Shown: piece by piece, positions 6,628 through 56,120 of the stretch
Position numbering within the stretch: position 1 is the stretch's first letter
Layout of the letters: each line of letters starts with the position of its first letter
Origin: an archaeon
Lineage (GTDB): Archaea > Micrarchaeota > Micrarchaeia > Norongarragalinales > UBA97
Length of the DNA: 64,000 bases
Direction of reading: 5' to 3'
NCBI GenBank assembly: GCA_020057405.1
Contig: JAGVFW010000013.1
Span: 23,144 to 87,143, forward strand
Program-made: the position numbers and the translations under genes
Notes under the pieces: model-generated
What the model saw: the letters and a program-made list of their open reading frames with translations, nothing else
The model's database searches: none
Told to the model about the DNA's origin: nothing

Positions 6628-8169
6628 GTGGAGGAGGAAGCGGCGCCCGCCCAGGAGTTTGTCTTTTCGCACAAAGCGAGCGACAAGCAAATCAAAAAAC
6701 GCGTGAGCCTGCATGAGCTCATGGCGGCATACGAGTCGGCCCAGACTACGGCAGACATCCCGATTCCAAGAAACCCGCTTGACCAAATTATCGGCCAAGA
6801 CGAGGCGGTTCGAACGGCTGCGATTGCGGCAAAACAGCGCCGTCACCTGCTTTTAGTCGCTCCGCCAGGGACCGGCAAGTCATTGATTGCACAGGCAATC
6901 AGCCTGCAGCTGCCAAAACCAATGCAGCAGATAGAAATAATCCACAATCCCGAAAACCCGGAGCGGCCCATCGCGGAATCACGGACGCATGAAGAGATTG
7001 AGAAAGACAAGCGCAGCCTTAGGGAAGTGCAGGGCAAGACCGTAAACCCGCAGGAAGTGCCGGGGTTCGTCGCCGAGCGCCTGGGCTTCCGCTGCCGCCG
7101 CTGCGCAACTTACTCGCCGGCCCGCACTCAGTACTGTCCCAGCTGCAATTCAGACAAGTACGCCCGCGAGCAAATGCAGTCGCCCTTCGGCGACCTTCTC
7201 GCACCCTACTTTGAGGAAAACGAAAGGCAAGATAGGGTGCACACGACCAAGCTTGACCCCGGAGGCAGGGAGGAAGTAGTTGTTTACGAACGGTCGGGAG
7301 AGCAGGTGCTCGTGCTCGACCAAAAGTACCTCGAGCGCCTCAACACCTTGAAAAAACAGAATCCCCGCAGGATACTGGTGCCGTTTAACCGCAAGACTTT
7401 CGTCGTCGCAACTGGCGCAAGCGAGACTGAATTGCTTGGCGACGTTCGCCACGACCCCTACGGCGGGCACCCTGGCATCGGCACGCTACCGTACCTGCGC
7501 GTCGTGCCGGGGGCAGTGCACGAGGCGCATGAGGGCGTCCTCTTCATCGACGAGATTTCGGCACTCGCCTACATCCAACGCTTTTTGCTTACTGCAATGC
7601 AAGAAAAGAAGTACTCGATTGTCGGAAGGAACCCGCACAGCGCGGGCGCGTCTGTGAAAGTCGAGAGCGTGCCGTGCGACTTCATCCTCATCGCCGCAAG
7701 CAACATCAACGACTTGCCAAGCATCCTCCCGCCCCTGCGTTCCCGCATCATCGGAAACGGCTACGAGGTACTGCTTGAAACGCACGCGCCGGACACTCTT
7801 GAAAACCGCGCGAAGTTCGCGCAGTTCGTCGCACAGGAAATCAAAAAAGACGGCAAAATCCCGCACGCTTCCCGCGAGGCAATCGAGGCCATCATCGATG
7901 AGGCGAAAAGGCGAGCGAAAACAGTTGACGGAATCGACGGTGCCCTCACACTCCGCCTGCGCGAGCTCTCCGGCATCATCCGCCTCTCAGGCGACATCGC
8001 AAGCGCCCAAGGCGCACCCCTCATTGAAAAGGCTTTTGTCGAACTGGCCCGCACCAAGCGCGGCCGAAGGATTGAAGAGCAGCTAAAGGACCGCTACGGC
8101 TCGATGTACAAAGCCCAGATGGGCGACGTCGGAAAAGACAGCGAGCGCGAAGGACAGGAAGTAAGCTGA
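6628..8169 (+). CDS. Lon-related AAA+ ATPase lacking a protease domain, with an inserted C4 zinc ribbon
   Basis: The N-terminus resembles LonB (IIGQDEAVRTAAIAAKQRRHLLLVAPPGTGKS). A Walker B/sensor follows (VLFIDEISAL). CRRC…CPSC sits between Walker A and Walker B. There is no Ser-Lys protease domain at the C-terminus. Confidence 0.6.
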   Translation: MEEEAAPAQEFVFSHKASDKQIKKRVSLHELMAAYESAQTTADIPIPRNPLDQIIGQDEAVRTAAIAAKQRRHLLLVAPPGTGKSLIAQAISLQLPKPMQQIEIIHNPENPERPIAESRTHEEIEKDKRSLREVQGKTVNPQEVPGFVAERLGFRCRRCATYSPARTQYCPSCNSDKYAREQMQSPFGDLLAPYFEENERQDRVHTTKLDPGGREEVVVYERSGEQVLVLDQKYLERLNTLKKQNPRRILVPFNRKTFVVATGASETELLGDVRHDPYGGHPGIGTLPYLRVVPGAVHEAHEGVLFIDEISALAYIQRFLLTAMQEKKYSIVGRNPHSAGASVKVESVPCDFILIAASNINDLPSILPPLRSRIIGNGYEVLLETHAPDTLENRAKFAQFVAQEIKKDGKIPHASREAIEAIIDEAKRRAKTVDGIDGALTLRLRELSGIIRLSGDIASAQGAPLIEKAFVELARTKRGRRIEEQLKDRYGSMYKAQMGDVGKDSEREGQEVS

Positions 8170-9137: not shown

Positions 9138-9175
9138 CTAATTTATTATACTTAATCTACGAGAAGTAACGCAGC

Positions 9176-9670
9176 ATGAAAGCGTTTATCACCGCAGTAA
9201 AGAGTAGGGATTTTGAGAAAGTGCGGCGAGCGCTGCCCGAGCTTAGTCTAAATGCCCCGGGAAATAAGAGATTCAACCTTAGCGGCAACTGGTTAGTGGC
9301 ACACGTCGACAAGCTAACGCGCGCGCTGCCGGGACCGGAAATCAGAAAAAATAACAAAATGGGCAAAAACTACGAGCTGAGGAAAAAAGTACTGGGGGCG
9401 CTGCTTGGCGAGGCCGTGATGCGCCACCTAGGCATAACCGGGCAGGAACGCGAAAAGGTCAGGGACGTGATTGCCCAAAGGATAGTTTCCGAATCTAGCG
9501 ACATCGACGAGAGCGACTTGGCTGAGGAAACGATGATGAGGGTATATGCGAAATTCAGCGAGCTCAAGACCCAGTTAAACGGCATGCGGACAAGGCATCG
9601 GATAAACGACGCGAAGCATTACGAAGTGTGGGACCACGCCTCAAAGGCCGCAATCTACTTCACGCCCTGA
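9176..9670 (+). CDS. hypothetical protein (164 aa)
   Basis: ORF only. Confidence 0.35.
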   Translation: MKAFITAVKSRDFEKVRRALPELSLNAPGNKRFNLSGNWLVAHVDKLTRALPGPEIRKNNKMGKNYELRKKVLGALLGEAVMRHLGITGQEREKVRDVIAQRIVSESSDIDESDLAEETMMRVYAKFSELKTQLNGMRTRHRINDAKHYEVWDHASKAAIYFTP

Positions 9671-9743
9671 GGCGAAACCCAAGACTAACCCTTAAAACGC
9701 TTGCCGGGCTAATAGTTGTTTAAACCGCTTTAGGCGGAAAAAG

Positions 9744-10310
9744 GTGAATTTGTTGAAGAACTATCCCTCGCCACTCAAACTCAACTTAGGCTGCCACTTC
9801 AAGAAACTGGACGGTTTTGTGAATGTCGACTTTGACAAGGAAGTCAAGCCCGAAGTCGTCTGGGACCTAAACAAGATGCCCTGGCCGTTTAAGGCAGGCA
9901 GCGTCGACTACATCAACGGCGACGGCGTCCTAGAGCACCTGGGCTACCTCGACCCCGTGTTTGCCGAGCTCTCGCGCATACTTAAAGTCGGAGGCGAGGC
10001 GTACTTCAGCGTCCCTTACGTGACTAACGCGTACTCCATTTCCTTGATGAACTACACGAAGTGGCACAACCACACGCACATCGGCTTCATCCACGACAGC
10101 TTCGACAGGTTGTGCGAAATCAACGGCATGGAAGTCTACAAGAGGCAAATCGCGTTTGCCAGGCCGTACCAGTGGCTTGGACTGCAATGGCTCTTCAACA
10201 AGATTCCCGGCATCTACAACCACTTTTTCCTCTTCAGCTACCCCGCCCACGAGTTGCGCGTGTGGGTGAGGAAAAAAGAGCAAGTCAAGAAAAAAGAGTT
10301 CCACAACTAG
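9744..10310 (+). CDS. class I SAM-dependent methyltransferase
   Basis: LNLGCH…VNVDFD…DGVLEHL…LKVGGEAYFSVP is the methyltransferase motif I / post-I / II pattern. Confidence 0.6.
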   Translation: MNLLKNYPSPLKLNLGCHFKKLDGFVNVDFDKEVKPEVVWDLNKMPWPFKAGSVDYINGDGVLEHLGYLDPVFAELSRILKVGGEAYFSVPYVTNAYSISLMNYTKWHNHTHIGFIHDSFDRLCEINGMEVYKRQIAFARPYQWLGLQWLFNKIPGIYNHFFLFSYPAHELRVWVRKKEQVKKKEFHN

Positions 10311-10377
10311 GGCGGAAAGCGCTTCCACAAGCGTTTAAATCACATTTCCCGCCCAAATAACTAAGCTGCTTCTAGAC

Positions 10378-10451
10378 GCCGCAGTAACTCAGCCTGGGAG
10401 AGTGATCGCCTGAAGAGCGATTTGTCGGGTGTTCAAATCACCCCTGCGGCA
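10378..10451 (+). tRNA. tRNA-Phe (anticodon GAA); integration target of the downstream element
   Basis: GCCGCAG acceptor, D-arm ACUC/GAGU, anticodon stem AUCGC/GCGAU with loop CUGAAGA, T-loop UUCAAAU. Confidence 0.85.
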
Positions 10452-10454
10452 TTC
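10434..10454 (+). repeat. attL (tRNA-Phe 3' end copy of the 21-bp core)
   Basis: Exact 21-nt match to 15771-15791. Confidence 0.75.
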
Positions 10455-10502
10455 CCTTTTTCTTGAAAGTTGGGGAGAACAACTTTTCTCCCCATCAACA
10501 GT

Positions 10503-11006
10503 TCAAACTCGCCCTAATGCCTCCCTTCTTCGAAAATAAACTCTACCTACCTGTTCCCTAGAGGGCGAGTCTATTTTTTCCATAAAATCCTCCCACTTAA
10601 GTTGCGAGCCTATGCAGACAAGGACATCGTTACCGTATGCCTCGAAATTCGTATTATAAAACTGGGAGGTATTAGCCGGCTGTTGATGCCAAGGATAGTC
10701 CTTTAGAATCTTTAATTCCCCGTATTGCTTCGTAACGAAATAGACGTCAACAGTGTTTCCGTCTTTTGTGTCTTGACGAACTTGAATGAACAAATTAGAA
10801 CCGCAGTCTGGCGCTATTTCCGCAACAAGCTGCGTACCGTTTTGGCGTAAATATCCAAATGCAACAATAGAAGCAGAGTCGGCGTAAGATTCGGCCCTTA
10901 GGTAGAATGGCATGGAGTCAATAAGACTGCCGGAGTTAACCACTAGTTTTTCGTCACCTTCGCTGTAGAACGGTTTCTTGATAGCTATGGCCAAGGCATT
11001 CACCAC
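10503..11006 (-). CDS. hypothetical protein (167 aa), immediately downstream of the integrase
   Basis: ORF abuts the integrase stop. No recognisable domain. Confidence 0.4.
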   Translation of the reverse strand: MVNALAIAIKKPFYSEGDEKLVVNSGSLIDSMPFYLRAESYADSASIVAFGYLRQNGTQLVAEIAPDCGSNLFIQVRQDTKDGNTVDVYFVTKQYGELKILKDYPWHQQPANTSQFYNTNFEAYGNDVLVCIGSQLKWEDFMEKIDSPSREQVGRVYFRRREALGRV

Positions 11007-12155
11007 CTATTTTTCTGATGGCAGGAGCAATTTTAAGCTCCTCATGGACTGCTGAAAACCACTCCACGCTCCTCTCCTCATTAGCTCTTGTTGGAAGTGT
11101 TTCTTGTTGCTGCCGTCTTGAAGGTAGACGGCCATTGCGTGAATTATTGTTGCAAGGTCGGCGTCAATTCTCGTCGGGTCATTCTTTCCATAAAGCTCTT
11201 CGAACTTTTCCTGCACTAGGTAACGGTCGGCGTGAACGTACCTGGCCGTCATGTCCGAGTCCGGCCTCCAACCGAAGTAATACTTTAGCTGCTGGTCAGT
11301 CAGGTGCTTGGCCATTTCGCTTGCCCTGGCGTGCCGCCATGAATGCGGATTGAGTTTCTTGTTAATTCCCGCAAGTTTCTGTAGGCGAGCAATAGTGTTA
11401 CAAGCGGCGGCGTAAGACAATTGCTTGCCCCATCCGTTAAGCCACAGGGGAACGTTGGAATTTTTCTCGAACTTCCTCGGGTGAACGTCAAGATATACCT
11501 GCATGAATTCCAAGGCCAACGGCCAGCCAACTGGCACAATCCTTTCACCAGTCTTGCCGTCTAGCCTAACGAGCGTCTCGTTTCCTTCCTTGAAGACATC
11601 ACTTACTTTCAGGTTGAGCATTTCGCCGATGCGGGCGCCCGTAGCGTAAAGAAGAGAGATGAACGCCTTTTCCTGCAGGCTAGCGGTTTGGTCGATTATG
11701 CGCTTTACTTCCTCTTCTGAAATCAGTTTTGACGGGTGAAGTAACGCCGGATGAGGCTTTGCCATGTAGAAGTTGTCAAGTATGCCAGGGTAGCGTTTCC
11801 CTTCGCCTAACAGCCATTTATAGAAAGTGCGAGTGGTTAGGAAGAGGTCAAACTTGTAGGGTTCAGAAATCGGCTTGCCTCTCTTGGCAGTTGCCTGCCT
11901 TATCTTGCGGGCAAGCTCCTCCAGGTCGTCTTTGGTAGCGTCCTTGAAATGCTTGCCTAGAAGGTCAGAAATCTTGCGCAGTTGCCAAGAGCGCTTAAAC
12001 CGGAGTCGCAGGCTTTTTCCCTGCGCTTCCAGATAAGCTAGGTAGCGTTTCGCCAGTTCTGCTTCCTCAGGCTGCATCGCTTTGAAGGCGGTAAACTGCC
12101 TCGCAATCATCCGTTCCCCTTGCTCCAATTGTTCCGAGTTCATCTTCTCCACCAA
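11007..12155 (-). CDS. int: tyrosine recombinase/integrase (intact, non-partitioned type)
   Basis: The C-terminal catalytic region has …HSWRHARASE… (HxxR) and …RYVHADRY… (catalytic Tyr). There is an N-terminal SAM-like domain. Confidence 0.85.
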   Translation of the reverse strand: MVEKMNSEQLEQGERMIARQFTAFKAMQPEEAELAKRYLAYLEAQGKSLRLRFKRSWQLRKISDLLGKHFKDATKDDLEELARKIRQATAKRGKPISEPYKFDLFLTTRTFYKWLLGEGKRYPGILDNFYMAKPHPALLHPSKLISEEEVKRIIDQTASLQEKAFISLLYATGARIGEMLNLKVSDVFKEGNETLVRLDGKTGERIVPVGWPLALEFMQVYLDVHPRKFEKNSNVPLWLNGWGKQLSYAAACNTIARLQKLAGINKKLNPHSWRHARASEMAKHLTDQQLKYYFGWRPDSDMTARYVHADRYLVQEKFEELYGKNDPTRIDADLATIIHAMAVYLQDGSNKKHFQQELMRRGAWSGFQQSMRSLKLLLPSEK

Positions 12156-12379
12156 ACGCCACTACCAATTCAATTACCGCCTGCACCACCGTTTTTGAAA
12201 CTGCCATCCAAAACCACCTCCGCAAAACGCTTTTTGCAATAGAAGAGCAAATGAAATGCCTCAGGCTCAGAGAGTTCTTGTCTGCAAAGCGAGCACTTCA
12301 TTCGACTTACCTCTTTACCTACATACCTATAGTAGTATAACGATAGGTGTATTTAAGGCTTTCGGTATATAGGTATGAT

Positions 12380-12517
12380 ATGGCACGTGTGAAAACTAGT
12401 ATTTCAATCGATGAGGAAACCTGGAAGGAGTTTCGCAAGAAGTGCATCGACGTAGGTAAAGATGCCAGCACAGTTCTCGAGGAACTCATGCATCGGTGGT
12501 TAAAGGAAAAAAGCTAG
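12380..12517 (+). CDS. ribbon-helix-helix (CopG/Arc-like) DNA-binding protein, 45 aa; not in the ORF track
   Basis: MARVKTSISIDEETWKEFRKKCIDVGKDASTVLEELMHRWLKEKS is the β-strand then two-helix RHH pattern. It is divergent from the integrase. Confidence 0.6.
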   Translation: MARVKTSISIDEETWKEFRKKCIDVGKDASTVLEELMHRWLKEKS

Positions 12518-12544
12518 CCTCATTTTGAAGTTTTTGGTGAAATA

Positions 12545-13714
12545 ATGGCTGTTGAAGAAACGCTTCGGGTCGTCGAAGAAATGGATCGCGACAAAGGCAA
12601 ACGCGTAGCTAGAGTTAGTAGAGAGACAATGCAAAAATTGTCTCTTGAAACCGGGGACCGAATCAAAATTGTCGGCAAGAAAACAACCCTCGGGCTCGTC
12701 TTACCAGCACACACAGAAGACGAAAAACTCGATATCATTAGAATTAGCGACATTTTGAGAGCATCCGCGGCAGTTGAACTTAACCAATTAGTTAAAATAT
12801 CAAAAATCGATGGCGAAATAGCTAGTCTAGTCGTATTAGCACCAAAACAACCAACTGCCTACGCGCCCGGATTTGACCAGTACGTCAAAAAGAATCTCAT
12901 CGGCAAGCCTATCGAGACTGGAGAAATAGTTGAGATAAAAGTGTATGAAACTAGCTATCCATTTACCGTCATAACAACTGTTCCCGACAGTGTTGTCGTA
13001 GTTAGTTATGAAACCGAAGTAAAACTAAGTACCGAACCGTCTGGGATGATTGACTCAAAAATATTCAGAGATAGAAAGTTTTTAGAAAGAAAATTAAAGT
13101 TTTTGAAAAACCGAACGAATAAGTCCAAGGCCGTATTGACAACGGAGTGGGGTTTGACCGGAATAAACATTACCGGAAATATAATCCAACTCAATGAAGA
13201 TGGATTTAAACAATTGAACGTAACAACTGGAGACATAGTTGAAATCACTAACCAGTTTGACTCGGATTCATTAGAACAAAAAACGGTTTTAGCTAGAGTC
13301 GAACCAATTACCGTCGGAAAATTCAATTTTGCAAGAATGCCGGAGAGTATTAAGGACGAATTAATTCTTTCAAGTTCATCAAAAAATATTGAAATCCGAA
13401 AATCAACGCTTAAACCGGCTAAGAAAATAGCGCTAGTTCGTCAATCGTTCGGACACGCATTTTTACCATCAGATTACGAAATTAATCTCCTTAAATTAGA
13501 CTCGATGTTAGACCGATTATTGTTGCCCGGAGATTCTTTCGACGTTGCCGTAAAGAATTCCAGCATTCCATTAGTTGTTGAAAAAATCGAGCCCATCGGC
13601 CCTACCATTGTAACAAAGGACACAATCGTCGAATTTACTGAAAAGCCATTAAATCACAACCAGCTTCTTGAAGATTTCCAAGCATTACGACAATATCTAC
13701 AAAACAAAGCCTGA
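12545..13714 (+). CDS. stand-alone tandem Cdc48/VAT N-domain-like (double-psi barrel) protein with no ATPase domain
   Basis: …VARVSRETMQKLSLETGDRIKIVGKK… and a second …NVTTGDIVEITNQ… module resemble the CDC48_N fold. The gene is AT-rich. Confidence 0.45.
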   Translation: MAVEETLRVVEEMDRDKGKRVARVSRETMQKLSLETGDRIKIVGKKTTLGLVLPAHTEDEKLDIIRISDILRASAAVELNQLVKISKIDGEIASLVVLAPKQPTAYAPGFDQYVKKNLIGKPIETGEIVEIKVYETSYPFTVITTVPDSVVVVSYETEVKLSTEPSGMIDSKIFRDRKFLERKLKFLKNRTNKSKAVLTTEWGLTGINITGNIIQLNEDGFKQLNVTTGDIVEITNQFDSDSLEQKTVLARVEPITVGKFNFARMPESIKDELILSSSSKNIEIRKSTLKPAKKIALVRQSFGHAFLPSDYEINLLKLDSMLDRLLLPGDSFDVAVKNSSIPLVVEKIEPIGPTIVTKDTIVEFTEKPLNHNQLLEDFQALRQYLQNKA

Positions 13715-13782
13715 GTTAAACACAAAATAGCGTCCACTACTACCAACCATTAACTTTAAATTAACCTATCATTAAATAGTTA

Positions 13783-15165
13783 ATGATAACCGTGGACATT
13801 GCAACCCTGAAAAAATTGATTGAGTCCGGCGAGGGCAACACCGTAGAATTTCAGCAAGCTGTAGCAAAGGACACGGGCCGAACTATATGTGCTTTCGCCA
13901 ATACCGATGGCGGCCACCTGATTATTGGAGTGGAAAAGAATGGCGGAATCGTGGGACTTGAACGGGCAAAGTTAGATGACCTCCAACAAGCTGTTTCAAA
14001 CTCCTACAAAATTTGTAGCCCCGTTCCGTTAACACAAGTAGGCACCGTAGAAATCGACGGTAAGTATGTCCTAGTTATTTCAACCGCAAAGCTGGGGGAT
14101 GGCGTATGCTATTACGCAGATGAAATTTTGCTTAGGGTTGGAAGCACCAACCATAAACTCACCGGGCCAGCCATCGAAGAGTTTCTACGAAAAAATCGCG
14201 TAATCAACTTTGACTGGACGCGAAGTTCGGCCAAACTTCAAGACGTAGATACAGAAAAAATGAAAAAGTACATGAACCGTAGGTCGCCAAATTATTTGTT
14301 CGACCCTGCCAGCGAAAAGGCTTTAAAAAACCTCCTTATTTCGCTTCATTTGGCGGGAGAAAACGGCGACTTTTACGTAAGGAATGGCGGCGTCCTGTTC
14401 TTCGCCAAGCACCCTGAAACTTTTATCCCGCAAAACAAGGTGAAGTTAGTCCGATTCAAGGGCAAAATACCAGTGGACGTGTTGGACATACTCGTCCTAC
14501 AAAATACGCTTGTGGAAAATATCGAGGAAAGCCTGGCCTTTATCCGCCGAAGCACCCGCAAGAGCTACGAAATAAAGAACCTTGAACGAGAAGAAAAAAC
14601 TGAGTACCCTGAAATCGCAATCAGGGAAGCAATAGTCAACGCCCTCGTCCATCGCGACTACTTCAGCTCTGCCGTGGTACAGGTCAATGTCTTTGACGAC
14701 AGGATAGACATTGCAAACCCCGGAATGCTCCCAACAGGAATAAGCCCCGAGGATTTGTCATCACTTGGACTAGGAGTGCCACGTAACCCAATCATCTACC
14801 AGATGTTGATAGACATCAAGGTGGTTGAAGGCATAGGAACCGGCATTCCACGAATGATTTCGGCAATGCGGGACGCAGGATTGCCAGATCCCGAGTTCAG
14901 ACAATTGGGTCCATTGTTCAAAACCACGCTGTTTAACGCCTTCCCCAACCAAGCAGGCAATCTCAACGTCAGGCAAAGGCGCTCCCTGATTTACTTGAAG
15001 GATAACAGCATCATCACCGCACCACAGTACCGAAAAATGTTCAAGATAAGCCACCCAATCGCAGTCGACGACCTCAACAAGCTCATCAAGCTCGGACTCG
15101 TCAAGAAGAGAGGGCGGGGACCGGCAACGGCCTACGTACTAGCAAAACCTAAAATAAAGCAATAA
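13783..15165 (+). CDS. AlbA_2 (Schlafen-like) domain ATP-binding protein / putative transcription regulator
   Basis: The N-terminus, …GEGNTVEFQQAV…AFANTDGGHLIIGV…, is the AlbA_2 signature. A C-terminal HATPase_c_4-like region plus an HTH-like end follow. Confidence 0.6.
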   Translation: MITVDIATLKKLIESGEGNTVEFQQAVAKDTGRTICAFANTDGGHLIIGVEKNGGIVGLERAKLDDLQQAVSNSYKICSPVPLTQVGTVEIDGKYVLVISTAKLGDGVCYYADEILLRVGSTNHKLTGPAIEEFLRKNRVINFDWTRSSAKLQDVDTEKMKKYMNRRSPNYLFDPASEKALKNLLISLHLAGENGDFYVRNGGVLFFAKHPETFIPQNKVKLVRFKGKIPVDVLDILVLQNTLVENIEESLAFIRRSTRKSYEIKNLEREEKTEYPEIAIREAIVNALVHRDYFSSAVVQVNVFDDRIDIANPGMLPTGISPEDLSSLGLGVPRNPIIYQMLIDIKVVEGIGTGIPRMISAMRDAGLPDPEFRQLGPLFKTTLFNAFPNQAGNLNVRQRRSLIYLKDNSIITAPQYRKMFKISHPIAVDDLNKLIKLGLVKKRGRGPATAYVLAKPKIKQ

Positions 15166-15224
15166 TTAAGAACCTAAAGATAGGTTAATAAATACTTAAA
15201 GATACAATAATCTGGGAAGCAGAA

Positions 15225-15476
15225 ATGGAAATAACTGGAATTAAGCTTTTTGACAAACCGAACATAGCGCTTACTTTCGTCTTTAATGGAAATCAGAGGC
15301 AGGAAGTAAGCTTTAACTTGCTTGGAATAATTCTCATCGCCCTAAGCTTGTTCATCCTGGTTTTTTCAGAGTCATTCCCTCAGCCGATACAGGGGTGGTT
15401 TCAAAGTCTGGGGGCGGCAATGCTGATAGCTGGAATCGTAATTTACGGACTAACTAAAAAACAAAAAGGCAAGTAA
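15225..15476 (+). CDS. small membrane protein (2 TM)
   Basis: Hydrophobic. Lies inside the element. Confidence 0.35.
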   Translation: MEITGIKLFDKPNIALTFVFNGNQRQEVSFNLLGIILIALSLFILVFSESFPQPIQGWFQSLGAAMLIAGIVIYGLTKKQKGK

Positions 15477-15478
15477 CC

Positions 15479-15715
15479 ATGTTGCAAGAGCTACTTCAAT
15501 CAAAAAATCCCCTGATAAAAATAGTGACGATAACCGCGATTGGTTTAGTCGTCTTCATAGTCTTCGGGATTCTCTCAATCATCCTCCTGCCCTGGATAGC
15601 CCAAAAGCAGGGAGCGACTCTTGGTCCTCAGGAGTGGCTTGCGTTCTACACTAACCTACTTGCCGGAATTGCCACCAGCATTACCATCGGTATACTGTTC
15701 TTTCTTCAAAAATAG
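15479..15715 (+). CDS. small membrane protein (2 TM)
   Basis: Hydrophobic. Lies inside the element and is adjacent to the previous ORF. Confidence 0.35.
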   Translation: MLQELLQSKNPLIKIVTITAIGLVVFIVFGILSIILLPWIAQKQGATLGPQEWLAFYTNLLAGIATSITIGILFFLQK

Positions 15716-15770
15716 TCAAATACCGTCGGCGTTCTATGCCTCCGGTTCTCCCCGTCTTTTGACTTTTGGG

Positions 15771-15791
15771 CAAATCACCCCTGCGGCATTC
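15771..15791 (+). repeat. attR (distal copy of the 21-bp core)
   Basis: Exact 21-nt match to the tRNA-Phe 3' end. Confidence 0.75.
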
Positions 15792-15881
15792 TAATACGAT
15801 AGCGTAATGCCTCCACGAGCTCTACAGCGGCAGCTCGTACGGATAAACCAATAAATACGGCTTTTCAAATAGCTTGATACG

Positions 15882-17360
15882 ATGAAAAGCTTGGAAACAC
15901 CATCGATTGCGCGTTTTCTATTGCTTGCTGCAATAATGATTTTGATTTCGCTTATGCTGACGAACTCGGAGTTTACAGGAAAAAGCACGGGCGGAGTTGT
16001 TTTGAATCTTCCGAATTTAAACCCTGGCGCCATAATTCAAACTACGCCGGGCCCCAGTCCCACCGCGTCGCCGCAACCCTCCCCGTCTCCCACGCCCCGA
16101 CCTACTCCTTCGCCCAGCCCCTCGACAACTCCGAGCCCGTCTCCAAGCGTTTCACCAAGCCCCAGTCCCTCTCCCACGCCAACTCCAAATCCGGACTTCG
16201 CGTGTGGGGTTAATGAAAGCGGAAAGACGAAGCGCTTCGTTTCATCCTGCGGCGACTTGAATCAGTCGAACAGCGCCTATTTCCTCACGCGAGACATCAT
16301 CAACTCTAACAACGAATACTGTTTCACCATCTCGGCCGACAACGTTGTTCTTGATTGCGGCAACCGCCGGATTGACGGCGACGGTTCCGGTTACGCGGCA
16401 ATCTTTGCCAAATCTAGGACTAATATAAGCGTAGTCAAGTGCAGCATGACTGACTGGTTCTACGGCGTGGAGGGAGAGTCTATCGGCAAAAGCGCCTTTT
16501 CCTGCAACAAATTCTCGAACCACATGTATGGCGGATTGCAATTCGACCGCGTTACGGACTCGGCAGCATTCAACAACACGTTCCTTTCTGGAGTTTATCA
16601 AGCGGCCGAATTAATGCGCTCTAACCGCAATTCATTTAATGAAAACAGCATTTTGAACGGCTTTGTCGGAGCACTGCTGACTCGGTCGTCACTCAATACG
16701 TTTTACAAAAACAAGTTCATCGGCCCCACCCAGCCCATAACCCTGATAGAAAACTCGAATGCGAACATCGTATCGGAAAACACGCTTAATGGCCCCGTAA
16801 ATCCAGGCATACTCGTCATCAATAGCCGCTCTAACACGCTCGAACTGAATAAGATCACTTCGGGAAGCGGAGCGCACTTGATTGACCTGCTTGTTGCAAA
16901 CGGTACCTCGATTCGAGACAACTATTTGGTACCTGCTCCTGGAGCGGCTGCAATCCGACTAGATCGATCCCAAAGCAATACATTGCTCAGAAACAAGATA
17001 GTGGGAAGCCAACTCTGTCCGGAGGGAATCTTGGTTGGCGAAGCAGGTGACGAGCAGCCTTCCAAGTTAAACACTATCGCCTATAACGACATTACGGGCT
17101 GCTTGTTCGGCCTCAACATCGATAACTCTGACGCGGACCGGATTATTTCAAACAAAATAGCCGGCTTCGGTATTAGCGGCATTTTCCTTACGCTGTCCAG
17201 CAACGAGTACTTGGCGTCAAATCGTGTTTGTGGCGCCAAATTTCCTAACGCCGACATTAGTGCGGAATCCTCTAGCGGCACGGGCAGGGAAAACACTTGC
17301 GACACTACTTCTTATTGGAACGACCAGGGACAAACCGGCTGCACATACCGGTGCAGCTAG
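15882..17360 (+). CDS. secreted right-handed parallel β-helix repeat protein (NosD/pectate-lyase-like) with a Pro/Ser/Thr-rich linker
   Basis: N-terminal TM/signal segment, then a PTPSPSP… linker, then repeated N/G/S-rich β-helix repeats (…NNTF…N.I.N…). Confidence 0.6.
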
Positions 17361-17574
17361 GCCGTTTAGCCTAGAACTAAATGAAACACGTCAATCAGAA
17401 TGCTAGTCTCACCGTGCTTTGGAAGTGCATCACTTGCTCCAACCAATGCATTCTGCTCGTTTCTCCCGGAATGAGGGCATCGTTATAGCGTAGTGTACCG
17501 CGCCCCTGCGGCACCCTAATTTTCTTAGACGTTTAAGCGCCTGCGAACGCGGGTTTAATAGGCGCGTCCGGCAC

Positions 17575-17895
17575 TTGACCTCGGGGATAGTTTCTATGTT
17601 TGGCCTTGACGAGTACGCGAAAAAGAAAGCCAAAGAAATAGAGGCAAAGCTCGCCCGAACGATAATGCTGGTTCAGGTGTTCGTCTTTGTCGCAGTTGCC
17701 TCGGTTGGCCTTCTTATTGGCTCTTTTTTCCTAGAGTCGGTTGAGCTAACTGAAATAGGCGTCGTCCTCGTAATTGCGGCAGCCGCTGCAGTTATGGTTG
17801 GCTCAAGGCTCTGGCGGATTTACAACGAGATAAAACAGGAAGCCCTCAGCTTCGTCGAAGACCAAAAAAGAAAGATTTCCGGGACGCAGAAGTAA
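17575..17895 (+). CDS. small membrane protein
   Basis: Two hydrophobic helices. ORF only. Confidence 0.35.
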   Translation: MTSGIVSMFGLDEYAKKKAKEIEAKLARTIMLVQVFVFVAVASVGLLIGSFFLESVELTEIGVVLVIAAAAAVMVGSRLWRIYNEIKQEALSFVEDQKRKISGTQK

Positions 17896-18243
17896 ACTAC
17901 CCGCAACGCATTAGAAAATCGCCGCCCGTTATTTCTTCGGTTTTCGCTTGTGCGCCCCCTCCGACACCCTATTAACTTGCAGGGACTAAATTTCTTTTAT
18001 GAAACACGGATTCCGCAAGGTTTGGGAACTTGATGCCGATACTCCGTTTCTAGGACGGGCTGAAAAAGTCATCATAATAAATGACAAGAAGCTGCTTGAG
18101 GGCGCCGAACAATATAGAAAATTGAATTTGCGCAACTTCGAAGTCGACCTTTTGATTTCAGAAGCTCCGCAAACCCACCTGAATCAGATAGGCGAACTGC
18201 GCGGAAAGATTTACCCCTGAGGCGATTCCGGTTACGCTTTGGC

Positions 18244-18654
18244 TTAGGGCGCGTGGCGGAGGATTTCGTGGTTTGCCGGCCGCTTGCCGCCCAATTCCTT
18301 TAGCGCCGTGACTGCTTCCTTTGGCACACCCTTGAGGACGATGTTGACGCGGTGAGGCAACGTTCCATCCTCGTCGTGCGTCTTTGCGACAAAATGGCGT
18401 GACTTGGAATCCCATTCGCGCACTTCAATATGGTGCACCGCAATGCCTGGTTTTTCGGTCCCGGGCCAATGGTCTTCGACAATTTTTTTCAGCTCTTGCT
18501 GCACGGAATTTCCGGAACCCTTAACGTTCATCTCGTGCTCGACGACTTTCCCGACTCCGTCAATGTCGAAAGAGAGCGTCCACGCGTTGTGGGGCTTCTC
18601 GTGCTTTAGCTCCATTACTTTTTTCCAAAACGCGACGTAAGGATTTGCCTTCAT
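18244..18654 (-). CDS. hypothetical protein (136 aa)
   Basis: ORF only. Confidence 0.35.
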   Translation of the reverse strand: MKANPYVAFWKKVMELKHEKPHNAWTLSFDIDGVGKVVEHEMNVKGSGNSVQQELKKIVEDHWPGTEKPGIAVHHIEVREWDSKSRHFVAKTHDEDGTLPHRVNIVLKGVPKEAVTALKELGGKRPANHEILRHAP

Positions 18655-18762
18655 TAAAAATCAACCCGAAGCACTAATGATTTGCAGCCATTAATAAAAC
18701 AACAGCCGGACCATGACCCCTATTTCCGCAAGTTTAAATTCTGGCCCGCACTGCGTTTCCCG

Positions 18763-19230
18763 ATGGACCTGCTGCCGCAAGACGATTGGCTCAAGCTTGG
18801 CGCGAGCGTAGCCGCCTGCGAGGTTGCAGGGATTGCGGGGGCGGCGTTTATGGGGCCCGGCGTAACAGGATTGGCCATAGGCGTGGGGCTTGATTTCGTG
18901 ACTCCCGACCTCGCCTTCGGCCCGCTCCTTACCGCACTCTACATCTTGATGGGCGTCGCGCTCTTTCTAGTCTGGAAGCGCGCTAGGCGACCGGGGTCGG
19001 GTAGGGCACTTGAGCTATTTGGCCTGCAGCTTGCGTTGGGCGTTATTTGGTCCGCAGTATTCTTCGGGCTAAAGTCGCCGGTAGGGGGGCTTGTTGTGAT
19101 AATCTCCTTGCTGGCGACCACGCTGTTAACTATTGCCGAGTTCTGGCGCCTTGACGCGCGGGCTGGCGCGCTTCTCTTGCCTTACCTAGCGTGGGTCACC
19201 TTCGCTGCAGTGACAAACTATTTCGCGTGA
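18763..19230 (+). CDS. tspO: TspO/MBR family tryptophan-rich sensory protein (start moved to an internal Met)
   Basis: Five TM helices and a W-rich sequence. …LPYLAWVTFAAVTNYF… is the TspO C-terminal hallmark. Confidence 0.7.
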   Translation: MDLLPQDDWLKLGASVAACEVAGIAGAAFMGPGVTGLAIGVGLDFVTPDLAFGPLLTALYILMGVALFLVWKRARRPGSGRALELFGLQLALGVIWSAVFFGLKSPVGGLVVIISLLATTLLTIAEFWRLDARAGALLLPYLAWVTFAAVTNYFA

Positions 19231-19255
19231 GCTTAAAGCGCAGGGGGGGAAGCGG

Positions 19256-19516
19256 CTACTCGTGCGAATCCTGAGTCCATGTTTCTTTAAATCTGCGCAG
19301 TAAAGCTGAGGCCCTCAAGCGGGTTATAGGAGTATACTGCACGGCGTGAAACCCGCCGATTTTTTTGTCGTGCTTGAGGTAAACGCCGTTAACTTCCTCC
19401 AAGTACGGCTCGTGGGTGGTTAAGCCGCCAACCGATACTACGTACTGTTTGCCGCCCTCCCGTTGGCGCATCAGGACGTAAGAGTTGGAAGTCACCAGCA
19501 TCTGCTTTGGTTTCAC
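19256..19516 (-). CDS. hypothetical protein (86 aa)
   Basis: ORF only. Confidence 0.3.
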   Translation of the reverse strand: MKPKQMLVTSNSYVLMRQREGGKQYVVSVGGLTTHEPYLEEVNGVYLKHDKKIGGFHAVQYTPITRLRASALLRRFKETWTQDSHE

Positions 19517-19593
19517 AACCGGTTTTGAACGAACAAAGCTTAAAATCTCACCCGGTGCAACTGCTTTTATTGCCGGAGTGGGCTAAACTGTTT

Positions 19594-20070
19594 ATGACAG
19601 CGCAGGTACTGGTCCTTCTCGGCAGCGCGTCCGACAAGCCGGTCTTCGAGAAGGCTAAAACCGTTTTCGACGAGCTTGGCATAAAGTGGGAAGTGCACGT
19701 GGCAAGCGCGCACCGAACGCCACAAAAAGTGGTAAAACTAGTCGAGTCAAGCAAGGCTGACGTCTTCATCGGCATCGCCGGCCTTAGCGCGGCACTCCCC
19801 GGAGTCATTGCCGCGCACACTACAAAACCCGTAATCGGGGTGCCCGTTGACTCAAAGCTAGGTGGCCTTGATGCGCTCCTCTCGGCGGCGCAGTTGCCGC
19901 CTGGCATTCCGGTCGCAAGCGTCGGAATCGACAGGGGGGAAAACGCGGCCCTACTCGCCGCTGCAATGCTTGCCCTCAAGGAACCCGAACTAGGCGAAAA
20001 GCTCGCTAGCTATCGAAAGAAAATGCGCGAGAAAATTGAGGCCGACGACGAAAGCGCGCAAAAGTGGTAA
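19594..20070 (+). CDS. purE: N5-carboxyaminoimidazole ribonucleotide mutase PurE (start moved to an internal Met)
   Basis: …VLVLLGSASDKPV…VASAHRTP…FIGIAGLSAALPGVIAAHTTKPVIGVP… are canonical PurE motifs. Confidence 0.85.
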   Translation: MTAQVLVLLGSASDKPVFEKAKTVFDELGIKWEVHVASAHRTPQKVVKLVESSKADVFIGIAGLSAALPGVIAAHTTKPVIGVPVDSKLGGLDALLSAAQLPPGIPVASVGIDRGENAALLAAAMLALKEPELGEKLASYRKKMREKIEADDESAQKW

Positions 20071-20109
20071 GTAACGAAATAAAGCTCGGCGCAACGCGCT
20101 TGAGAAAAC

Positions 20110-20823
20110 TTAGGCTTTCCGAATAATGTTGCCGCGGCCTTTCTTGATTTTCTTTAGCTTGCCTGCGGCCTCGAGAGAAGTTAGCACGAGGCTAACGCGC
20201 GCTTCCGACCAGTGGGGCAATGCCTTGCGCAGGTCCTTTTGGGTAATGAGGCCGCTTGAAGCGTCAAGCGCATTTAGCACGTCGCGCTCTTCCTCAAGCT
20301 CGAGCGCCCCGCCCGGTTCAGTGGCTTTTGCATCAGCTGGTTGGGGCGGATGTTTCTTTCGCCCGCGCAGGCGGTAGTACGCGCCAAGCACTATGGCCGC
20401 CAAGGCAACGCCTAAAAGGGCAAGCGGAACTGAGAAAGCGGAACCGCCGTCGACTCCCTCGCCCAAGTCGGGCAGGCCTCCGCCCGAGAGCTCGCCCAAA
20501 GACGCGTTTGCCGCCTGGCCCAAGCCAAGCTCGTCGATAAGCACCATGTCGAGACGGTAAGTGCCCGCGCGCTCAACAACGAGGGCTTGGGAGGCCGAGG
20601 CGTTCTCGCGCGAGGTGGCGGAGAGAAGGTAAGTGCCGGGGCCGACCTCGAAACGGTAAGAGCCGTTTGCCGCGACGACCTTTTGAACGGGCGTTGAGTT
20701 GACCTCGACTACCCCCGCCACGGGGCTAAAGGCATAGTCGTAAAGCGTGCCCTCAACAACCGCGGCCGAGGCGGCGGCTGAGAACGCCGTCAACAACACG
20801 AGTGCAACGAATAGCTGTCTCAT
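20110..20823 (-). CDS. membrane-anchored protein: signal peptide, extracytoplasmic β-sandwich, TM helix, cytoplasmic winged-helix domain
   Basis: Hydrophobic N-terminus, then a carboxypeptidase-regulatory-like region (…GTYLLSATS…), a TM helix (LALLGVALAAIVLGAYY), and a C-terminal wHTH-like end (…LNALD…GLITQKDLRKAL…). Confidence 0.4.
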   Translation of the reverse strand: MRQLFVALVLLTAFSAAASAAVVEGTLYDYAFSPVAGVVEVNSTPVQKVVAANGSYRFEVGPGTYLLSATSRENASASQALVVERAGTYRLDMVLIDELGLGQAANASLGELSGGGLPDLGEGVDGGSAFSVPLALLGVALAAIVLGAYYRLRGRKKHPPQPADAKATEPGGALELEEERDVLNALDASSGLITQKDLRKALPHWSEARVSLVLTSLEAAGKLKKIKKGRGNIIRKA

Positions 20824-20957
20824 AACTTAGTTTTGCCCAAAGAGCGTTAATAAGCCTTGTTTTTTCCTTAGGCGGTGGGGTAAAGTTTTGCGAGGCCTAC
20901 GCGGCCTGCCTAAAGCTTTGGCGCAAGTTTTTTTGAAAGATTGCTTATAAAGAAGGC

Positions 20958-22613: not shown

Positions 22614-22627
22614 ACACCCCCTTGAAT

Positions 22628-22673
22628 CCCCCGCTAGTTTTTTAGGCGGGGGGCAAACCCTTTTTATTTATTA
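22628..22673 (+). terminator. hairpin plus T-tract downstream of the 551-aa secreted-protein gene
   Basis: CCCCCGC-(11 nt)-GCGGGGG, followed by CTTTTTATTTATT. Confidence 0.4.
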
Positions 22674-22697
22674 AAACGCTAGACTCCTGTAATCGAT

Positions 22698-22961
22698 TTG
22701 GAGGTGCTTTGGTTGAAGGAACTGTTGATTGCCCTTTTACTCGGACTTTTGGTAGTAGGATGCGTTGCGCAAGGCGGGTCAAATGCCACGCCCACACCGT
22801 CTGCCACGCCTACGGTTGAGGCCACGCCGCCCGCACCGCCCGGAATTGACTCGAACGAAACGCAAAACGCGATTAACTCAGGATTAGAGGCAAGCCAAGC
22901 ACAGCCGCCCGAAATTCCCGACGACTCGCTTGACATCACTGCAGGCGACCTCGGAGCGTAG
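22698..22961 (+). CDS. small secreted or lipoprotein-like protein (87 aa)
   Basis: Hydrophobic N-terminus ending VVGC, then a Thr/Pro-rich segment. Confidence 0.3.
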   Translation: MEVLWLKELLIALLLGLLVVGCVAQGGSNATPTPSATPTVEATPPAPPGIDSNETQNAINSGLEASQAQPPEIPDDSLDITAGDLGA

Positions 22962-51171: not shown

Positions 51172-51182
51172 GTTGAACCTGC

Positions 51183-55311: not shown

Positions 55312-55325
55312 ACGAATAGAACGCA

Positions 55326-56099: not shown

Positions 56100-56120
56100 C
56101 GAGATACTTAGGCTTGCCCA

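What the first reader, a model, noticed from the sequence alone, without database searches (positions are those of the whole stretch)
10434..15791. Intact integrated element at tRNA-Phe with a 21-bp att duplication
The last 21 nt of tRNA-Phe plus 3 nt downstream, CAAATCACCCCTGCGGCATTC, recur exactly at 15771-15791. The 5.3 kb between is AT-rich. It carries an intact 382-aa tyrosine integrase next to the tRNA, an RHH protein, a Cdc48-N-like protein, an AlbA_2-domain ATPase and small membrane proteins. It has no recognisable capsid or replication genes, so it looks like a minimal integrative element or a decayed provirus or plasmid. Because the integrase is intact and the att sites are perfect, the element may still be excisable.
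Basis: seen in the sequence. Interest (0 to 1): 0.6.

Follow-up and report, generated by a model that had tools for sequence, protein, structure and literature searches.

The report
Small integrated element at tRNA-Phe
A 5.3-kb mobile DNA element carrying its own integrase sits in the end of the tRNA-Phe gene of a tiny DPANN archaeon (Micrarchaeota); it looks intact and recently inserted, but it is an ordinary kind of element with some unusual cargo genes.

Summary
An exact 21-bp direct repeat lies at 10434-10454 and 15771-15791. It brackets 5,316 bp of lower-GC DNA (45% against 53%).

The host is a Micrarchaeota archaeon. In related genomes tRNA-Val, tRNA-Phe, a transglutaminase gene and tRNA-Gly lie within about 2 kb. 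Here 12.7 kb separates tRNA-Phe from the transglutaminase gene. The closest relative (L001) has tRNA-Phe joined directly to the sequence that follows attR in this window.

The integrase has all six catalytic residues. Its nearest relatives (38-51% identity) sit at tRNA 3' ends. Two of them bound 7.0-kb and 9.1-kb elements marked by direct repeats.

The cargo is:
- an RHH regulator;
- a protein made of two tandem Cdc48/VAT N-domains with no ATPase;
- an AlbA_2/HATPase_c_4/wHTH protein;
- two small membrane proteins;
- a 167-aa beta-rich protein from a small uncharacterised family.

No replication or virion gene was found.

Verdict: a classical (type II) tRNA-targeting "cryptic integrated element", intact and probably recent. 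It is a new member of a known kind. Excision competence is plausible but untested.

The parts
10378..10451 (+). tRNA-Phe(GAA), intact and without an intron. Its 3' 18 nt lie inside attL and are supplied by the recombined core.
   Evidence: ARAGORN. Rfam RF00005, 62.2 bits, full length.
10434..10454 (+). attL core: 21-bp exact direct repeat, made of 18 nt of the tRNA 3' end plus 3 nt.
10455..10502 (.). Element-side arm next to attL. It has a T-rich tract (CCTTTTTCTT) directly after the tRNA and a perfect 9-bp-stem hairpin, TGGGGAGAA-N6-TTCTCCCCA, at 10471-10494. I infer that it ends both the tRNA transcript and the convergent ORF167/integrase unit.
   Evidence: Native tRNA-Phe flanks in L004, L008 and L031 are likewise T-rich.
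10503..11006 (-). ORF167, a beta-rich protein from a small uncharacterised family of about 145-aa proteins. Conserved motifs are RQDxKDG, WHHQPxN and IGSG. The true start is probably a few codons inside the ORF. It lies in the same frame as the integrase, directly after its stop codon.
   Evidence: 14 homologues among 1.84 billion representatives. Alignment A3. AlphaFold2 mean pLDDT 86, pTM 0.78. No match in Pfam, PDB or BFVD.
11007..12143 (-). Tyrosine integrase, 378 aa from the ATG at 12143 (the mechanical ORF runs to 12155). It is intact after integration and converges on the tRNA.
   Evidence: PF00589, E = 8.6e-24. Catalytic R175, K201, H271, R274, W296, Y306. Homologues at 56%, 51%, 44% and 38% identity, 371-396 aa long.
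12170..12301 (-). 43-codon ORF upstream of the integrase. Doubtful as a gene.
   Evidence: Listed mechanically only. No family hit.
12316..12379 (.). Putative promoter and operator of the cargo operon. A TATA-like TATTTAAG at 12350-12357 lies about 23 nt before the RHH ATG. It is bracketed by a perfect 10-bp inverted repeat, CATACCTATA / TATAGGTATG (12322-12331 and 12368-12377).
   Evidence: The function is inferred.
12380..12517 (+). Ribbon-helix-helix (Arc/CopG/ParG-like) protein of 45 aa. Probable regulator of the element.
   Evidence: phrog_3180 Arc-like repressor, 6.9e-5. ParG, 1e-3, below the Pfam cut-off.
12545..13714 (+). 389-aa protein made of two tandem Cdc48/VAT N-domains (double-psi barrel plus beta-clam) with no AAA+ ATPase. 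Copy 1 is 47-48% identical to the N-domains of Micrarchaeota Cdc48. Copy 2 is strongly diverged.
   Evidence: CDC48_N 2.6e-24 and CDC48_2 5.6e-21. VAT-N structure 1cz4, 4.6e-15. Homologues match only the N-terminal ~41-54% of the query. hhalign of the second half against an N-domain profile: probability 96.4%, E = 1e-9. tblastn with P0122 gives two hits.
13783..15165 (+). 460-aa protein with SLFN_AlbA_2, HATPase_c_4 and, from my reading of the sequence, a C-terminal wHTH. This is the architecture usually assigned to COG2865 (assigned from memory, not searched). It is commonly mis-annotated as 'RecG-like helicase'.
   Evidence: Pfam. phrog_12156. PADLOC pAgo-associated profiles, 1e-27. 436 homologues; among the top hits that carry a source name most are DPANN, best 65% and 58% identity.
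15225..15476 (+). 83-aa protein with two predicted membrane segments.
   Evidence: Hydropathy scan. JGI names it DUF308/HdeD-like.
15479..15715 (+). 78-aa protein with two predicted membrane segments.
   Evidence: Hydropathy scan.
15771..15791 (+). attR core: the second copy of the 21-bp repeat. It is not part of a tRNA.
15789..15814 (+). Flank right of attR (TTCTAATACGATAGCGTAATGCCTCC). In the closest relative, L001, the homologous sequence follows tRNA-Phe directly. This marks the pre-insertion junction.

Best explanation
Window 10434-15791 is a small cryptic integrated element in the chromosome of a Micrarchaeota (DPANN) archaeon.

Inferred mechanism: a circular form carried an attP whose 21-bp core matches the 3' end of tRNA-Phe. 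The element's own tyrosine recombinase recombined attP with that tRNA end (attB). This regenerated a complete tRNA-Phe at attL, with the element supplying a T-rich trailer, and left a 21-bp copy at attR. The integrase gene stays whole, which is classical or type II behaviour, and converges on the tRNA.

The element has two divergent transcription units:
- integrase plus ORF167 on the - strand;
- RHH, tandem Cdc48-N protein, AlbA_2/HATPase_c_4 protein and two small membrane proteins on the + strand. A TATA-like box bracketed by a perfect 10-bp inverted repeat lies in front of this unit and is the likely RHH operator.

The element has no replication or virion gene. It would persist by integration and could spread only by excision together with some helper or passive transfer.

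It is the newest layer of a larger variable region downstream of tRNA-Phe, 10452-23152.

Shown: the repeat, the intact catalytic set, the insertion relative to related genomes, and the same design in related elements. Inferred: current excision competence, the RHH operator role, and all cargo functions.
For: 1. An exact 21-bp repeat includes the tRNA 3' end. None is expected by chance, and identity ends sharply.

2. GC is 45.0% against 53.3%.

3. The host is Micrarchaeota. The flanking AAA+ gene is 69-72% identical, and the DnaG-like Toprim gene (named from its Toprim hit and its Micrarchaeota matches) 72-75% identical, to Micrarchaeota MAGs.

4. Relatives L007, L012 and L031 between them give a compact order. 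The AAA+ gene, tRNA-Phe and the transglutaminase gene are present in all three, tRNA-Val in L007 and L031, and tRNA-Gly in L012 and L031, with spacers of about 0.1-0.4 kb between the tRNAs and the transglutaminase gene. None of the element's genes occurs in any of the related loci then held; the only matches are the N-domains of full-length Cdc48 genes.

5. In L001, tRNA-Phe is followed directly by CCTAATACGATATTGTAATGCC. This matches window 15790-15812, right after attR.

6. The integrase is full length and has R175, K201, H271, R274, W296, Y306.

7. Its three nearest relatives with usable context (P0003, P0004, P0005) all have the integrase 3' end overlapping a convergent, intron-bearing tRNA gene. 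Direct repeats delimit a 9.1-kb element (L085, which carries a Prim-Pol gene) and a 7.0-kb element (L192).

8. In the wider family, about 30 loci have a tRNA within roughly 50-150 nt upstream of the integrase gene.

9. All element ORFs are as long as their homologues.

10. Every element protein looked up (five) is in a cluster confined to this single contig, among 15 billion sequences.
Against: - No circular form, empty site or attP junction was seen. The attP junction is absent from IMG/VR, and the window's own contig could not be retrieved.
- No excisionase-like directionality factor was identified beyond the RHH candidate.
- No replication gene is present, so autonomous propagation is unexplained.
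- Unlike its three nearest relatives, this integrase gene does not overlap the att core. 553 nt containing ORF167 intervene. The ancestral layout has therefore been altered, and I cannot exclude that this impairs recombination.
- The junction in L001 is probably not a pristine host attB. Native tRNA-Phe flanks in L004, L008 and L031 are T-rich, and L001 has a different integrase right after the conserved flank. It therefore shows the state before this insertion, not a never-occupied site.
Confidence: 0.85

Rival explanations
1. It is the stripped remnant of a larger plasmid-like integrative element. Relatives of 7-9 kb include one with a 1173-aa Prim-Pol replicase. This element lost its replication module and is now fixed, or movable only with help in trans.
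For: The 44%-identical integrase in L085 belongs to a 9.1-kb element with a Prim-Pol gene. L192 is 7.0 kb. The window element is smaller and has no replication gene. The integrase-att overlap seen in relatives is lost here.
Against: The att copies are identical, every ORF is intact, and the genes are tightly packed in two units. No pseudogene fragment of an integrase or replicase was found in the window. None of the genes of L085 or L192 has even a remnant here. Small cryptic integrated elements with no recognisable replication gene are a documented class (PMC6563490).
Confidence: 0.2
2. It is a provirus of a capsid-less pleomorphic (pleolipovirus-like) virus, and the small membrane proteins are its structural proteins.
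For: The best hit for the integrase among annotated viruses is Geoglobus acetivorans pleomorphic virus 1: 30% identity over 87% of the query, E = 2e-31. Two small membrane proteins lie at the distal end. Pleolipoviruses have no capsid protein (established knowledge of the family).
Against: There is no similarity to VP3-like or VP4-like proteins, to Rep, or to any other protein of that virus. PHROGs gives no structural hit beyond one weak tail-assembly match (E = 1.7e-3) to the 83-aa membrane protein. No large spike or fusion protein lies inside the att boundaries. From memory, 5.3 kb is below the size of known pleolipoviruses (about 7-17 kb).
Confidence: 0.04
3. The mobile or acquired unit is really the whole 12.7 kb between tRNA-Phe and the transglutaminase gene (10452-23152). 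On this reading the 21-bp repeat marks only an internal boundary of a composite island.
For: Relatives have only about 0.1-0.2 kb between tRNA-Phe and the transglutaminase gene. None of the genes in 15792-23152 has a homologue in the related loci. The flank after attR matches the flank that precedes a different integrase in L001, which suggests an older element layer. GC is somewhat low up to about 18.5 kb.
Against: No second att remnant exists anywhere in the window. Genes from 18.7 kb onward (TspO, PurE, a wHTH protein) have host-like GC and GC3. L004 also has non-syntenic metabolic genes here without an integrase, so ordinary rearrangement would suffice. This reading complements the main explanation for 10434-15791 rather than replacing it.
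Confidence: 0.3
4. The repeat is a chance match or a duplicated tRNA fragment with no connection to the integrase.
For: None beyond the general occurrence of tRNA fragments in archaeal genomes.
Against: No match in 100 shuffles. The repeat brackets exactly the low-GC, integrase-bearing segment. Related integrases show the same tRNA-end repeats.
Confidence: 0.01

Closest known systems
Cryptic integrated elements (CIE) of archaea, as defined for Thaumarchaeota (PMC6563490)
   Same: Integrase-bearing DNA bounded by att repeats, commonly at tRNA genes, with no viral, conjugative or casposon hallmark genes. Many have no identifiable replication protein, and sizes start at 2.6 kb. RHH and wHTH regulators are typical cargo.
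   Different: The host is a DPANN archaeon (Micrarchaeota). The cargo includes a tandem Cdc48 N-domain protein and the ORF167 family. Neither had a counterpart in any of the related loci fetched here.
Type II ('classical', pNOB8-like) archaeal integrative elements (PMC8371274)
   Same: The integrase gene stays intact after integration. The att core is the 3' part of a tRNA gene. The overall scheme follows the lambda paradigm.
   Different: Box II reads HxxR (HSWR), as in XerA/XerC and bacterial enzymes, not the YxxR signature of the pNOB8 subfamily. No conjugation genes are present, and the element is far smaller than pNOB8.
Related integrative elements found here, one (L081) in a Micrarchaeota MAG and two (L085, L192) in unassigned groundwater contigs: L081 at tRNA-Asn, L085 at tRNA-Tyr, L192 at tRNA-His
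   Same: Integrases are 38-51% identical. The integrase converges on the target tRNA. Short direct repeats of the tRNA 3' end are present, and element sizes are 7-9 kb.
   Different: In those elements the last 20-35 nt of the integrase gene overlap the tRNA/att core. Here 553 nt containing ORF167 separate them. No cargo gene is shared. L085 has a Prim-Pol replicase and this element has none.
SSV-type ('suicidal', type I) integrases
   Same: Archaeal tyrosine recombinases that target tRNA genes.
   Different: In the SSV type, attP lies inside the integrase ORF and integration splits the gene. Here the gene is intact, the KxxR motif is absent, and no SSV virus appears among the 15 best hits listed of 60 phage records.

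Membership tests
tRNA-targeting integrative element with a classical (type II) tyrosine integrase | Direct repeats flank the element, and one of them is the 3' part of an intact tRNA gene. | tested here: met
   Exact 21-bp repeat. tRNA-Phe is full length by ARAGORN and Rfam.
tRNA-targeting integrative element with a classical (type II) tyrosine integrase | The integrase gene is uninterrupted in the integrated state. | tested here: met
   382-codon ORF covering 94-97% of the query against homologues of 384-396 aa.
tRNA-targeting integrative element with a classical (type II) tyrosine integrase | Complete tyrosine-recombinase catalytic set: R, K, H-x-x-R, H/W, Y. | tested here: met
   R175, K201, H271, R274, W296 and Y306 are invariant or nearly invariant columns of alignment A2.
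tRNA-targeting integrative element with a classical (type II) tyrosine integrase | The element is absent from the same site in related genomes. | tested here: met
   L007, L012 and L031 have tRNA-Phe followed directly by the transglutaminase gene. L001 joins tRNA-Phe to the post-attR flank. The nearest relative is only about 70% identical at the protein level, so this is not a strain-level empty site.
tRNA-targeting integrative element with a classical (type II) tyrosine integrase | Demonstrated integration and excision activity. | not testable with these tools
   Needs read-level data or experiment. The attP junction was not found in IMG/VR.
pNOB8-type integrase subfamily | Signature R...YxxR...Y (PMC8371274). 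| tested here: not met
   Box II is H271-S-W-R274.
SSV-type (suicidal) integrase | attP lies within the integrase ORF, the gene is split on integration, and the motif is KxxR. | tested here: not met
   The gene is intact, the att core is 553 nt beyond the stop codon, and the motif is HxxR.
XerA chromosome-dimer resolvase | Score above the NCBIfam XerA_Arch equivalog cut-off, in a chromosomal housekeeping context. | tested here: not met
   86.3 bits against a cut-off of 220. The gene lies inside the att-bounded low-GC segment.
Provirus (head-tailed or pleolipovirus) | Virion hallmark genes: major capsid protein, terminase or portal, or VP3/VP4-like membrane proteins. | tested here: not met
   Pfam, PHROGs and NCBIfam give no virion hallmark hit; the only structural-category match is a weak tail-assembly hit (phrog_32, E = 1.7e-3) to the 83-aa membrane protein. 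tblastn against GacPV1 matches only the integrase.
Integrated plasmid | A replication initiator or replicase (Rep, Prim-Pol, MCM, Orc1) or conjugation genes. | tested here: not met
   No such domain in any ORF. The phrog 'DNA helicase' label on the AlbA_2 protein reflects the HATPase_c_4 'RecG-like' naming, not a helicase domain.
Cryptic integrated element (PMC6563490) | An att-bounded, integrase-encoding element with no hallmark genes of viruses, ICEs, casposons or IS elements. | tested here: met
   Follows from the rows above.

The most novel reading that the evidence does not exclude
The + strand operon (RHH, tandem Cdc48/VAT N-domain protein without ATPase, AlbA_2/HATPase_c_4/wHTH protein, two small membrane proteins) could be a host-manipulation or defence module.

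In particular, the N-domain protein appears to have been captured from a Micrarchaeota Cdc48 gene and duplicated. It might act as a decoy or competitor for substrates or cofactors of the host Cdc48-proteasome unfoldase.

That would be a mobile-element strategy I do not know to have been described in archaea. It would sit in a lineage where one large provirus survey found nothing integrated (PMC13573593).
Probability: 0.1. Interest if true: 0.6.

Novelty: new member of a known kind. Interest (0 to 1): 0.33.

Why it matters
Integrated elements in Micrarchaeota are poorly documented. One survey of 1,356 Micrarchaeota genomes reported no provirus (PMC13573593), and DPANN viruses were described as largely lytic (PMC12647753).

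This is a cleanly bounded, apparently intact element with known att sites and an integrase. It shows that classical tRNA-targeted integration operates in this reduced-genome lineage, and that the tRNA-Val/Phe/Gly cluster is a recurrent site of gene gain.

The att/integrase pair could serve as a starting point for genetic tools. The related elements whose integrase 3' end overlaps an intron-bearing tRNA are a tidy small family for comparative study.

The ATPase-less tandem Cdc48 N-domain protein is a curiosity that deserves a biochemical look. None of this overturns current understanding.

Tried and rejected
- Exact-protein look-ups of the window's own genes, including the 100%-identical database entries P0001 and P0121, returned nothing. 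The source contig (151,710 bp, in JGI and NCBI) could not be retrieved, so no strain-level comparison was possible.
- IMG/VR scans with the single integrase sequence and with the Cdc48-N protein found no relatives. The attP junction is absent from IMG/VR.
- blastn of the whole element against PLSDB plasmids and GenBank phages gave no match.
- Single-sequence AlphaFold2 of the Cdc48-N protein was useless, with mean pLDDT 30. Profile comparison was used instead.
- I looked for a second, decayed att copy that would delimit the older layer at 15792-23152. None was found.
- I looked for integrase pseudogene fragments elsewhere in the window. None was found.
- I checked whether neighbours of the closest AlbA_2 homologues (L170, L171) share other cargo genes. 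They do not.
- I considered that ORF167 might be a read-through extension of the integrase, because it is in the same frame directly after the stop codon. I rejected this because homologous integrases end where this one ends, and ORF167 has its own family of stand-alone homologues of about 145 aa.
- The DPANN mobile-element paper by Wu et al. 2024 (Nat Microbiol) is not held in the library. Overlap with their catalogue could not be checked.


Full report
**Observation**

ARAGORN places tRNA-Phe(GAA) at 10378-10451 on the + strand. Rfam scores it as a complete tRNA: 62.2 bits, model positions 1-71 of 71. The 21-mer CAAATCACCCCTGCGGCATTC occurs exactly twice in the 64-kb window, at 10434-10454 and 15771-15791. 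No further copy appears at up to three mismatches, and none appeared in 100 shuffles. A scan for degenerate copies (at least 16 of 21 matches, both strands) found nothing else.

Reading the sequence shows that the repeat is the last 18 nt of the tRNA plus 3 nt downstream. Identity ends abruptly on both sides. The 5,316 bp between the repeats have 45.0% GC. The rest of the window has 53.3% and the left flank 57%. Low GC alone is not diagnostic, because a second island at about 49-56 kb has 40-44%.

**Gene content**

- Tyrosine integrase (11007-12155, - strand; PF00589, E = 8.6e-24).
- Arc/ParG-like RHH protein. The likely ATG is at 12380.
- Protein with CDC48_N and CDC48_2 and no ATPase domain (12545-13714).
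- SLFN_AlbA_2 plus HATPase_c_4 protein (13783-15165).
- Two small proteins with two predicted membrane segments each (15225-15476 and 15479-15715).

Nothing resembles a capsid, terminase, Rep, Prim-Pol, MCM or conjugation protein.

A 167-codon ORF (10503-11006, - strand) and a perfect hairpin (10471-10494) lie between them. The integrase stop codon is therefore 553 nt from the att core.

**Host and locus history**

The flanking AAA+ ATPase gene (6628-8169) was used to fetch relatives. All the best hits are Micrarchaeota MAGs at 58-72% identity. The DnaG-like Toprim gene (named from its Toprim hit and its matches in these MAGs) gives 72-75%. The window therefore comes from a DPANN archaeon of the Micrarchaeota, and no species-level relative is in the genome collection.

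tRNA scans, blastn with the three window tRNAs and tblastn with the window proteins give a compact order in relatives L007, L012 and L031 taken together: AAA+ gene, tRNA-Val, tRNA-Phe, transglutaminase gene, tRNA-Gly. The AAA+ gene, tRNA-Phe and the transglutaminase gene are in all three; tRNA-Val is found in L007 and L031, and tRNA-Gly in L012 and L031. The spacers between the tRNAs and the transglutaminase gene are about 0.1-0.4 kb. In the window, 12.7 kb separates tRNA-Phe (10451) from the transglutaminase gene (23153). None of the genes in between has a homologue in any of the related loci held. The only matches are the N-domains of full-length Cdc48 genes.

The closest relative, L001, has an intron-bearing tRNA-Phe followed directly by CCTAATACGATATTGTAATGCC. 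This aligns base for base with window 15790-15812, the sequence just right of attR. So the 5.3 kb is an insertion, exactly at the repeat boundaries, relative to that arrangement.

One caveat applies. Native tRNA-Phe 3' flanks in L004, L008 and L031 are T-rich, as is the element-supplied flank at attL in the window. The flank shared by L001 and the window's attR side is not T-rich, and in L001 it precedes a different integrase (30% identity, cut by the contig end). The shared flank is therefore probably the arm of an older element. On that reading the window shows tandem accretion: a newer element inserted between tRNA-Phe and an older layer, 15792 to somewhere before 23152. The older layer's distal att is no longer recognisable.

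**The integrase and its family**

A search of 5.8 billion protein clusters found the following:
- the identical protein from a single 151,710-bp contig;
- relatives at 56%, 51% (Micrarchaeota CG1_02_55_22), 44% and 38% identity;
- a broad set of archaeal integrases of about 400 aa at 28-39% identity.

The alignment (A2) shows R175, K201, H271-x-x-R274, W296 and Y306 conserved. The catalytic set is complete. By the criteria of the review of archaeal tyrosine recombinases (PMC8371274), the enzyme behaves as type II or classical, because the gene stays intact. Its box II is HxxR, not the pNOB8 YxxR or the SSV KxxR. It scores 86 bits against the XerA equivalog cut-off of 220, so it is not the host's XerA.

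Context look-ups, with ARAGORN run allowing introns, show that the three nearest relatives with usable context share one design. The integrase converges on a tRNA gene and its last 20-35 nt overlap the tRNA 3' end.

| Relative | Locus | Target tRNA | Direct repeat | Element size |
|---|---|---|---|---|
| P0003 | L081 | tRNA-Asn | none found; integrase lies about 1 kb from the contig end | unknown |
| P0004 | L085 | tRNA-Tyr | shared core of about 17 nt | 9.1 kb, includes a 1173-aa Prim-Pol protein |
| P0005 | L192 | tRNA-His | 15 nt | 7.0 kb |

In the wider family, about 30 metagenomic loci have a tRNA within roughly 50-150 nt upstream of the integrase gene, in the same orientation. L001 has this arrangement too. 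The family is thus consistently tRNA-associated.

The window element keeps the convergent orientation of its nearest relatives but has lost the overlap. No cargo gene is shared with any related locus.

Among annotated viruses and plasmids the best hits are archaeal. They include Geoglobus acetivorans pleomorphic virus 1 (30% identity, E = 2e-31) and a Methanomicrobiales tailed virus. Nothing else in the element matches that pleolipovirus.

**Cargo**

*Cdc48-N protein.* Only its N-terminal ~41-54% matches anything in the database. The best hits are the N-domains of Micrarchaeota Cdc48 AAA ATPases at 47-48% identity. The solved VAT-N structure matches at E = 4.6e-15. Its second half matches an N-domain profile with 96.4% probability, E = 1e-9. 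tblastn with a Micrarchaeota Cdc48 also hits it at 27% identity, E = 1e-8. The protein is therefore a tandem pair of Cdc48 N-domains without any ATPase. No other protein with this architecture turned up.

*AlbA_2/HATPase_c_4 protein.* It belongs to a large family. Among the best hits that carry a source name, most are DPANN archaea. The best hits are 65% and 58% identical, and their neighbouring genes are unrelated to this element. It also matches PADLOC profiles of Argonaute-associated proteins. That is a lead towards a defence role, not evidence for one.

*ORF167.* It is a real gene. HMMER against 1.84 billion representatives found 14 homologues, mostly about 145 aa. One is a 6085-aa protein with 19 matching stretches. 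The family alignment gave a confident AlphaFold2 model, mean pLDDT 86 and pTM 0.78. It is an all-beta fold with C-terminal helices. It has no significant counterpart in Pfam, in PDB by sequence or fold, or in BFVD.

*Putative operator.* Upstream of the RHH gene, a TATA-like box (12350-12357) is bracketed by a perfect 10-bp inverted repeat. This suits an autoregulated operator. It is an inference.

**Interpretation**

The simplest account is a cryptic integrated element in the sense used for Thaumarchaeota (PMC6563490). It was inserted by its own classical tyrosine recombinase into the 3' end of tRNA-Phe. It is recent enough that the att copies are identical and all ORFs are intact. It has no replication or virion module.

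I put 0.85 on 'integrated mobile element inserted by site-specific recombination at these boundaries'. I put about 0.5 on 'still able to excise'.

The alternatives are scored in the report sections: remnant of a Prim-Pol plasmid-like element, pleomorphic provirus, part of a larger composite island, and chance. The composite-island view complements the main account rather than competing with it.

**Novelty and interest**

The kind of element is well known, so this is a new member. Three things are mildly new:
- the host lineage. One survey found no provirus in 1,356 Micrarchaeota genomes (PMC13573593). A DPANN mobile-element catalogue exists that I could not read;
- the small family of elements whose integrase 3' end overlaps intron-bearing tRNAs;
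- the ATPase-less tandem Cdc48 N-domain cargo.

Interest is 0.33.

Noticed in passing
window 15792-23152: A second layer of non-syntenic DNA lies between attR and the conserved transglutaminase gene. It holds a NosD/beta-helix secreted protein with a P/S/T-rich linker (15882-17360), a small membrane protein, TspO, PurE, a DUF7343 wHTH protein and a 551-aa protein with no family. No att remnant was found. Its first 25 nt match the flank that follows tRNA-Phe in L001 and precedes a different integrase there. This suggests an older, decayed element.
   Followed up: partly
window 9139-10377: Two ORFs lie between tRNA-Val and tRNA-Phe: a 164-aa protein of unknown family and a 188-aa methyltransferase. 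In relatives L007 and L031 these tRNAs are only about 100 nt apart. Neither ORF has a homologue in the related loci, yet their GC3 is host-like.
   Followed up: partly
window 49000-56100: A second low-GC island (40-44% GC) encodes a FIST-domain protein, an SDR/polysaccharide-synthesis-like protein, an aldehyde dehydrogenase/LuxC-like protein and a KaiC-like ATPase. KaiC-like and V4R-domain genes flank it. No integrase or tRNA was seen there.
   Followed up: partly
L081 2205-2329; L085 11136-11314; L192 11097-11265: In the three nearest relatives of the integrase, the last 20-35 nt of the integrase ORF overlap the 3' end of a convergent tRNA gene (Asn, Tyr, His) that carries a 51-86-nt intron. 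The att core therefore encodes the integrase C-terminus. This layout sits between the SSV type (att inside the integrase gene) and the classical type.
   Followed up: partly
L081 4898-5189 (also L082): The 3' end of tRNA-Pro (TCTCAGATCCCCCATCAGCGTCT) is repeated 68 nt and 269 nt downstream with almost nothing in between. These look like stacked att scars without cargo.
   Followed up: no
L004 13692-14267; L001 14088-14192: tRNA-Phe in relatives is interrupted. L001 has a 37-nt intron. L004 has an insert of about 40 nt in the D-arm region, with an adjacent ORF whose motifs I read as LAGLIDADG-like, on the opposite strand. The window's tRNA-Phe has no intron.
   Followed up: no
window 10515-10524 and 15805-15814: The 10-mer TAATGCCTCC occurs exactly twice in the window, 61 nt and 14 nt to the right of the two att cores. 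A near copy, TATGCCTCC, is at 15735. It could be an arm-type integrase site or a shared relic of related element arms. With one mismatch allowed, the count is not above chance.
   Followed up: partly
window 10503-11006 (ORF167 family): One homologue of ORF167 is a 6085-aa protein with 19 matching stretches, so this domain of about 140 aa also occurs as a repeat in a giant protein. The stand-alone family has invariant R77, H107, N112 and Y117 in window numbering, and a fold with no match in PDB or BFVD.
   Followed up: partly
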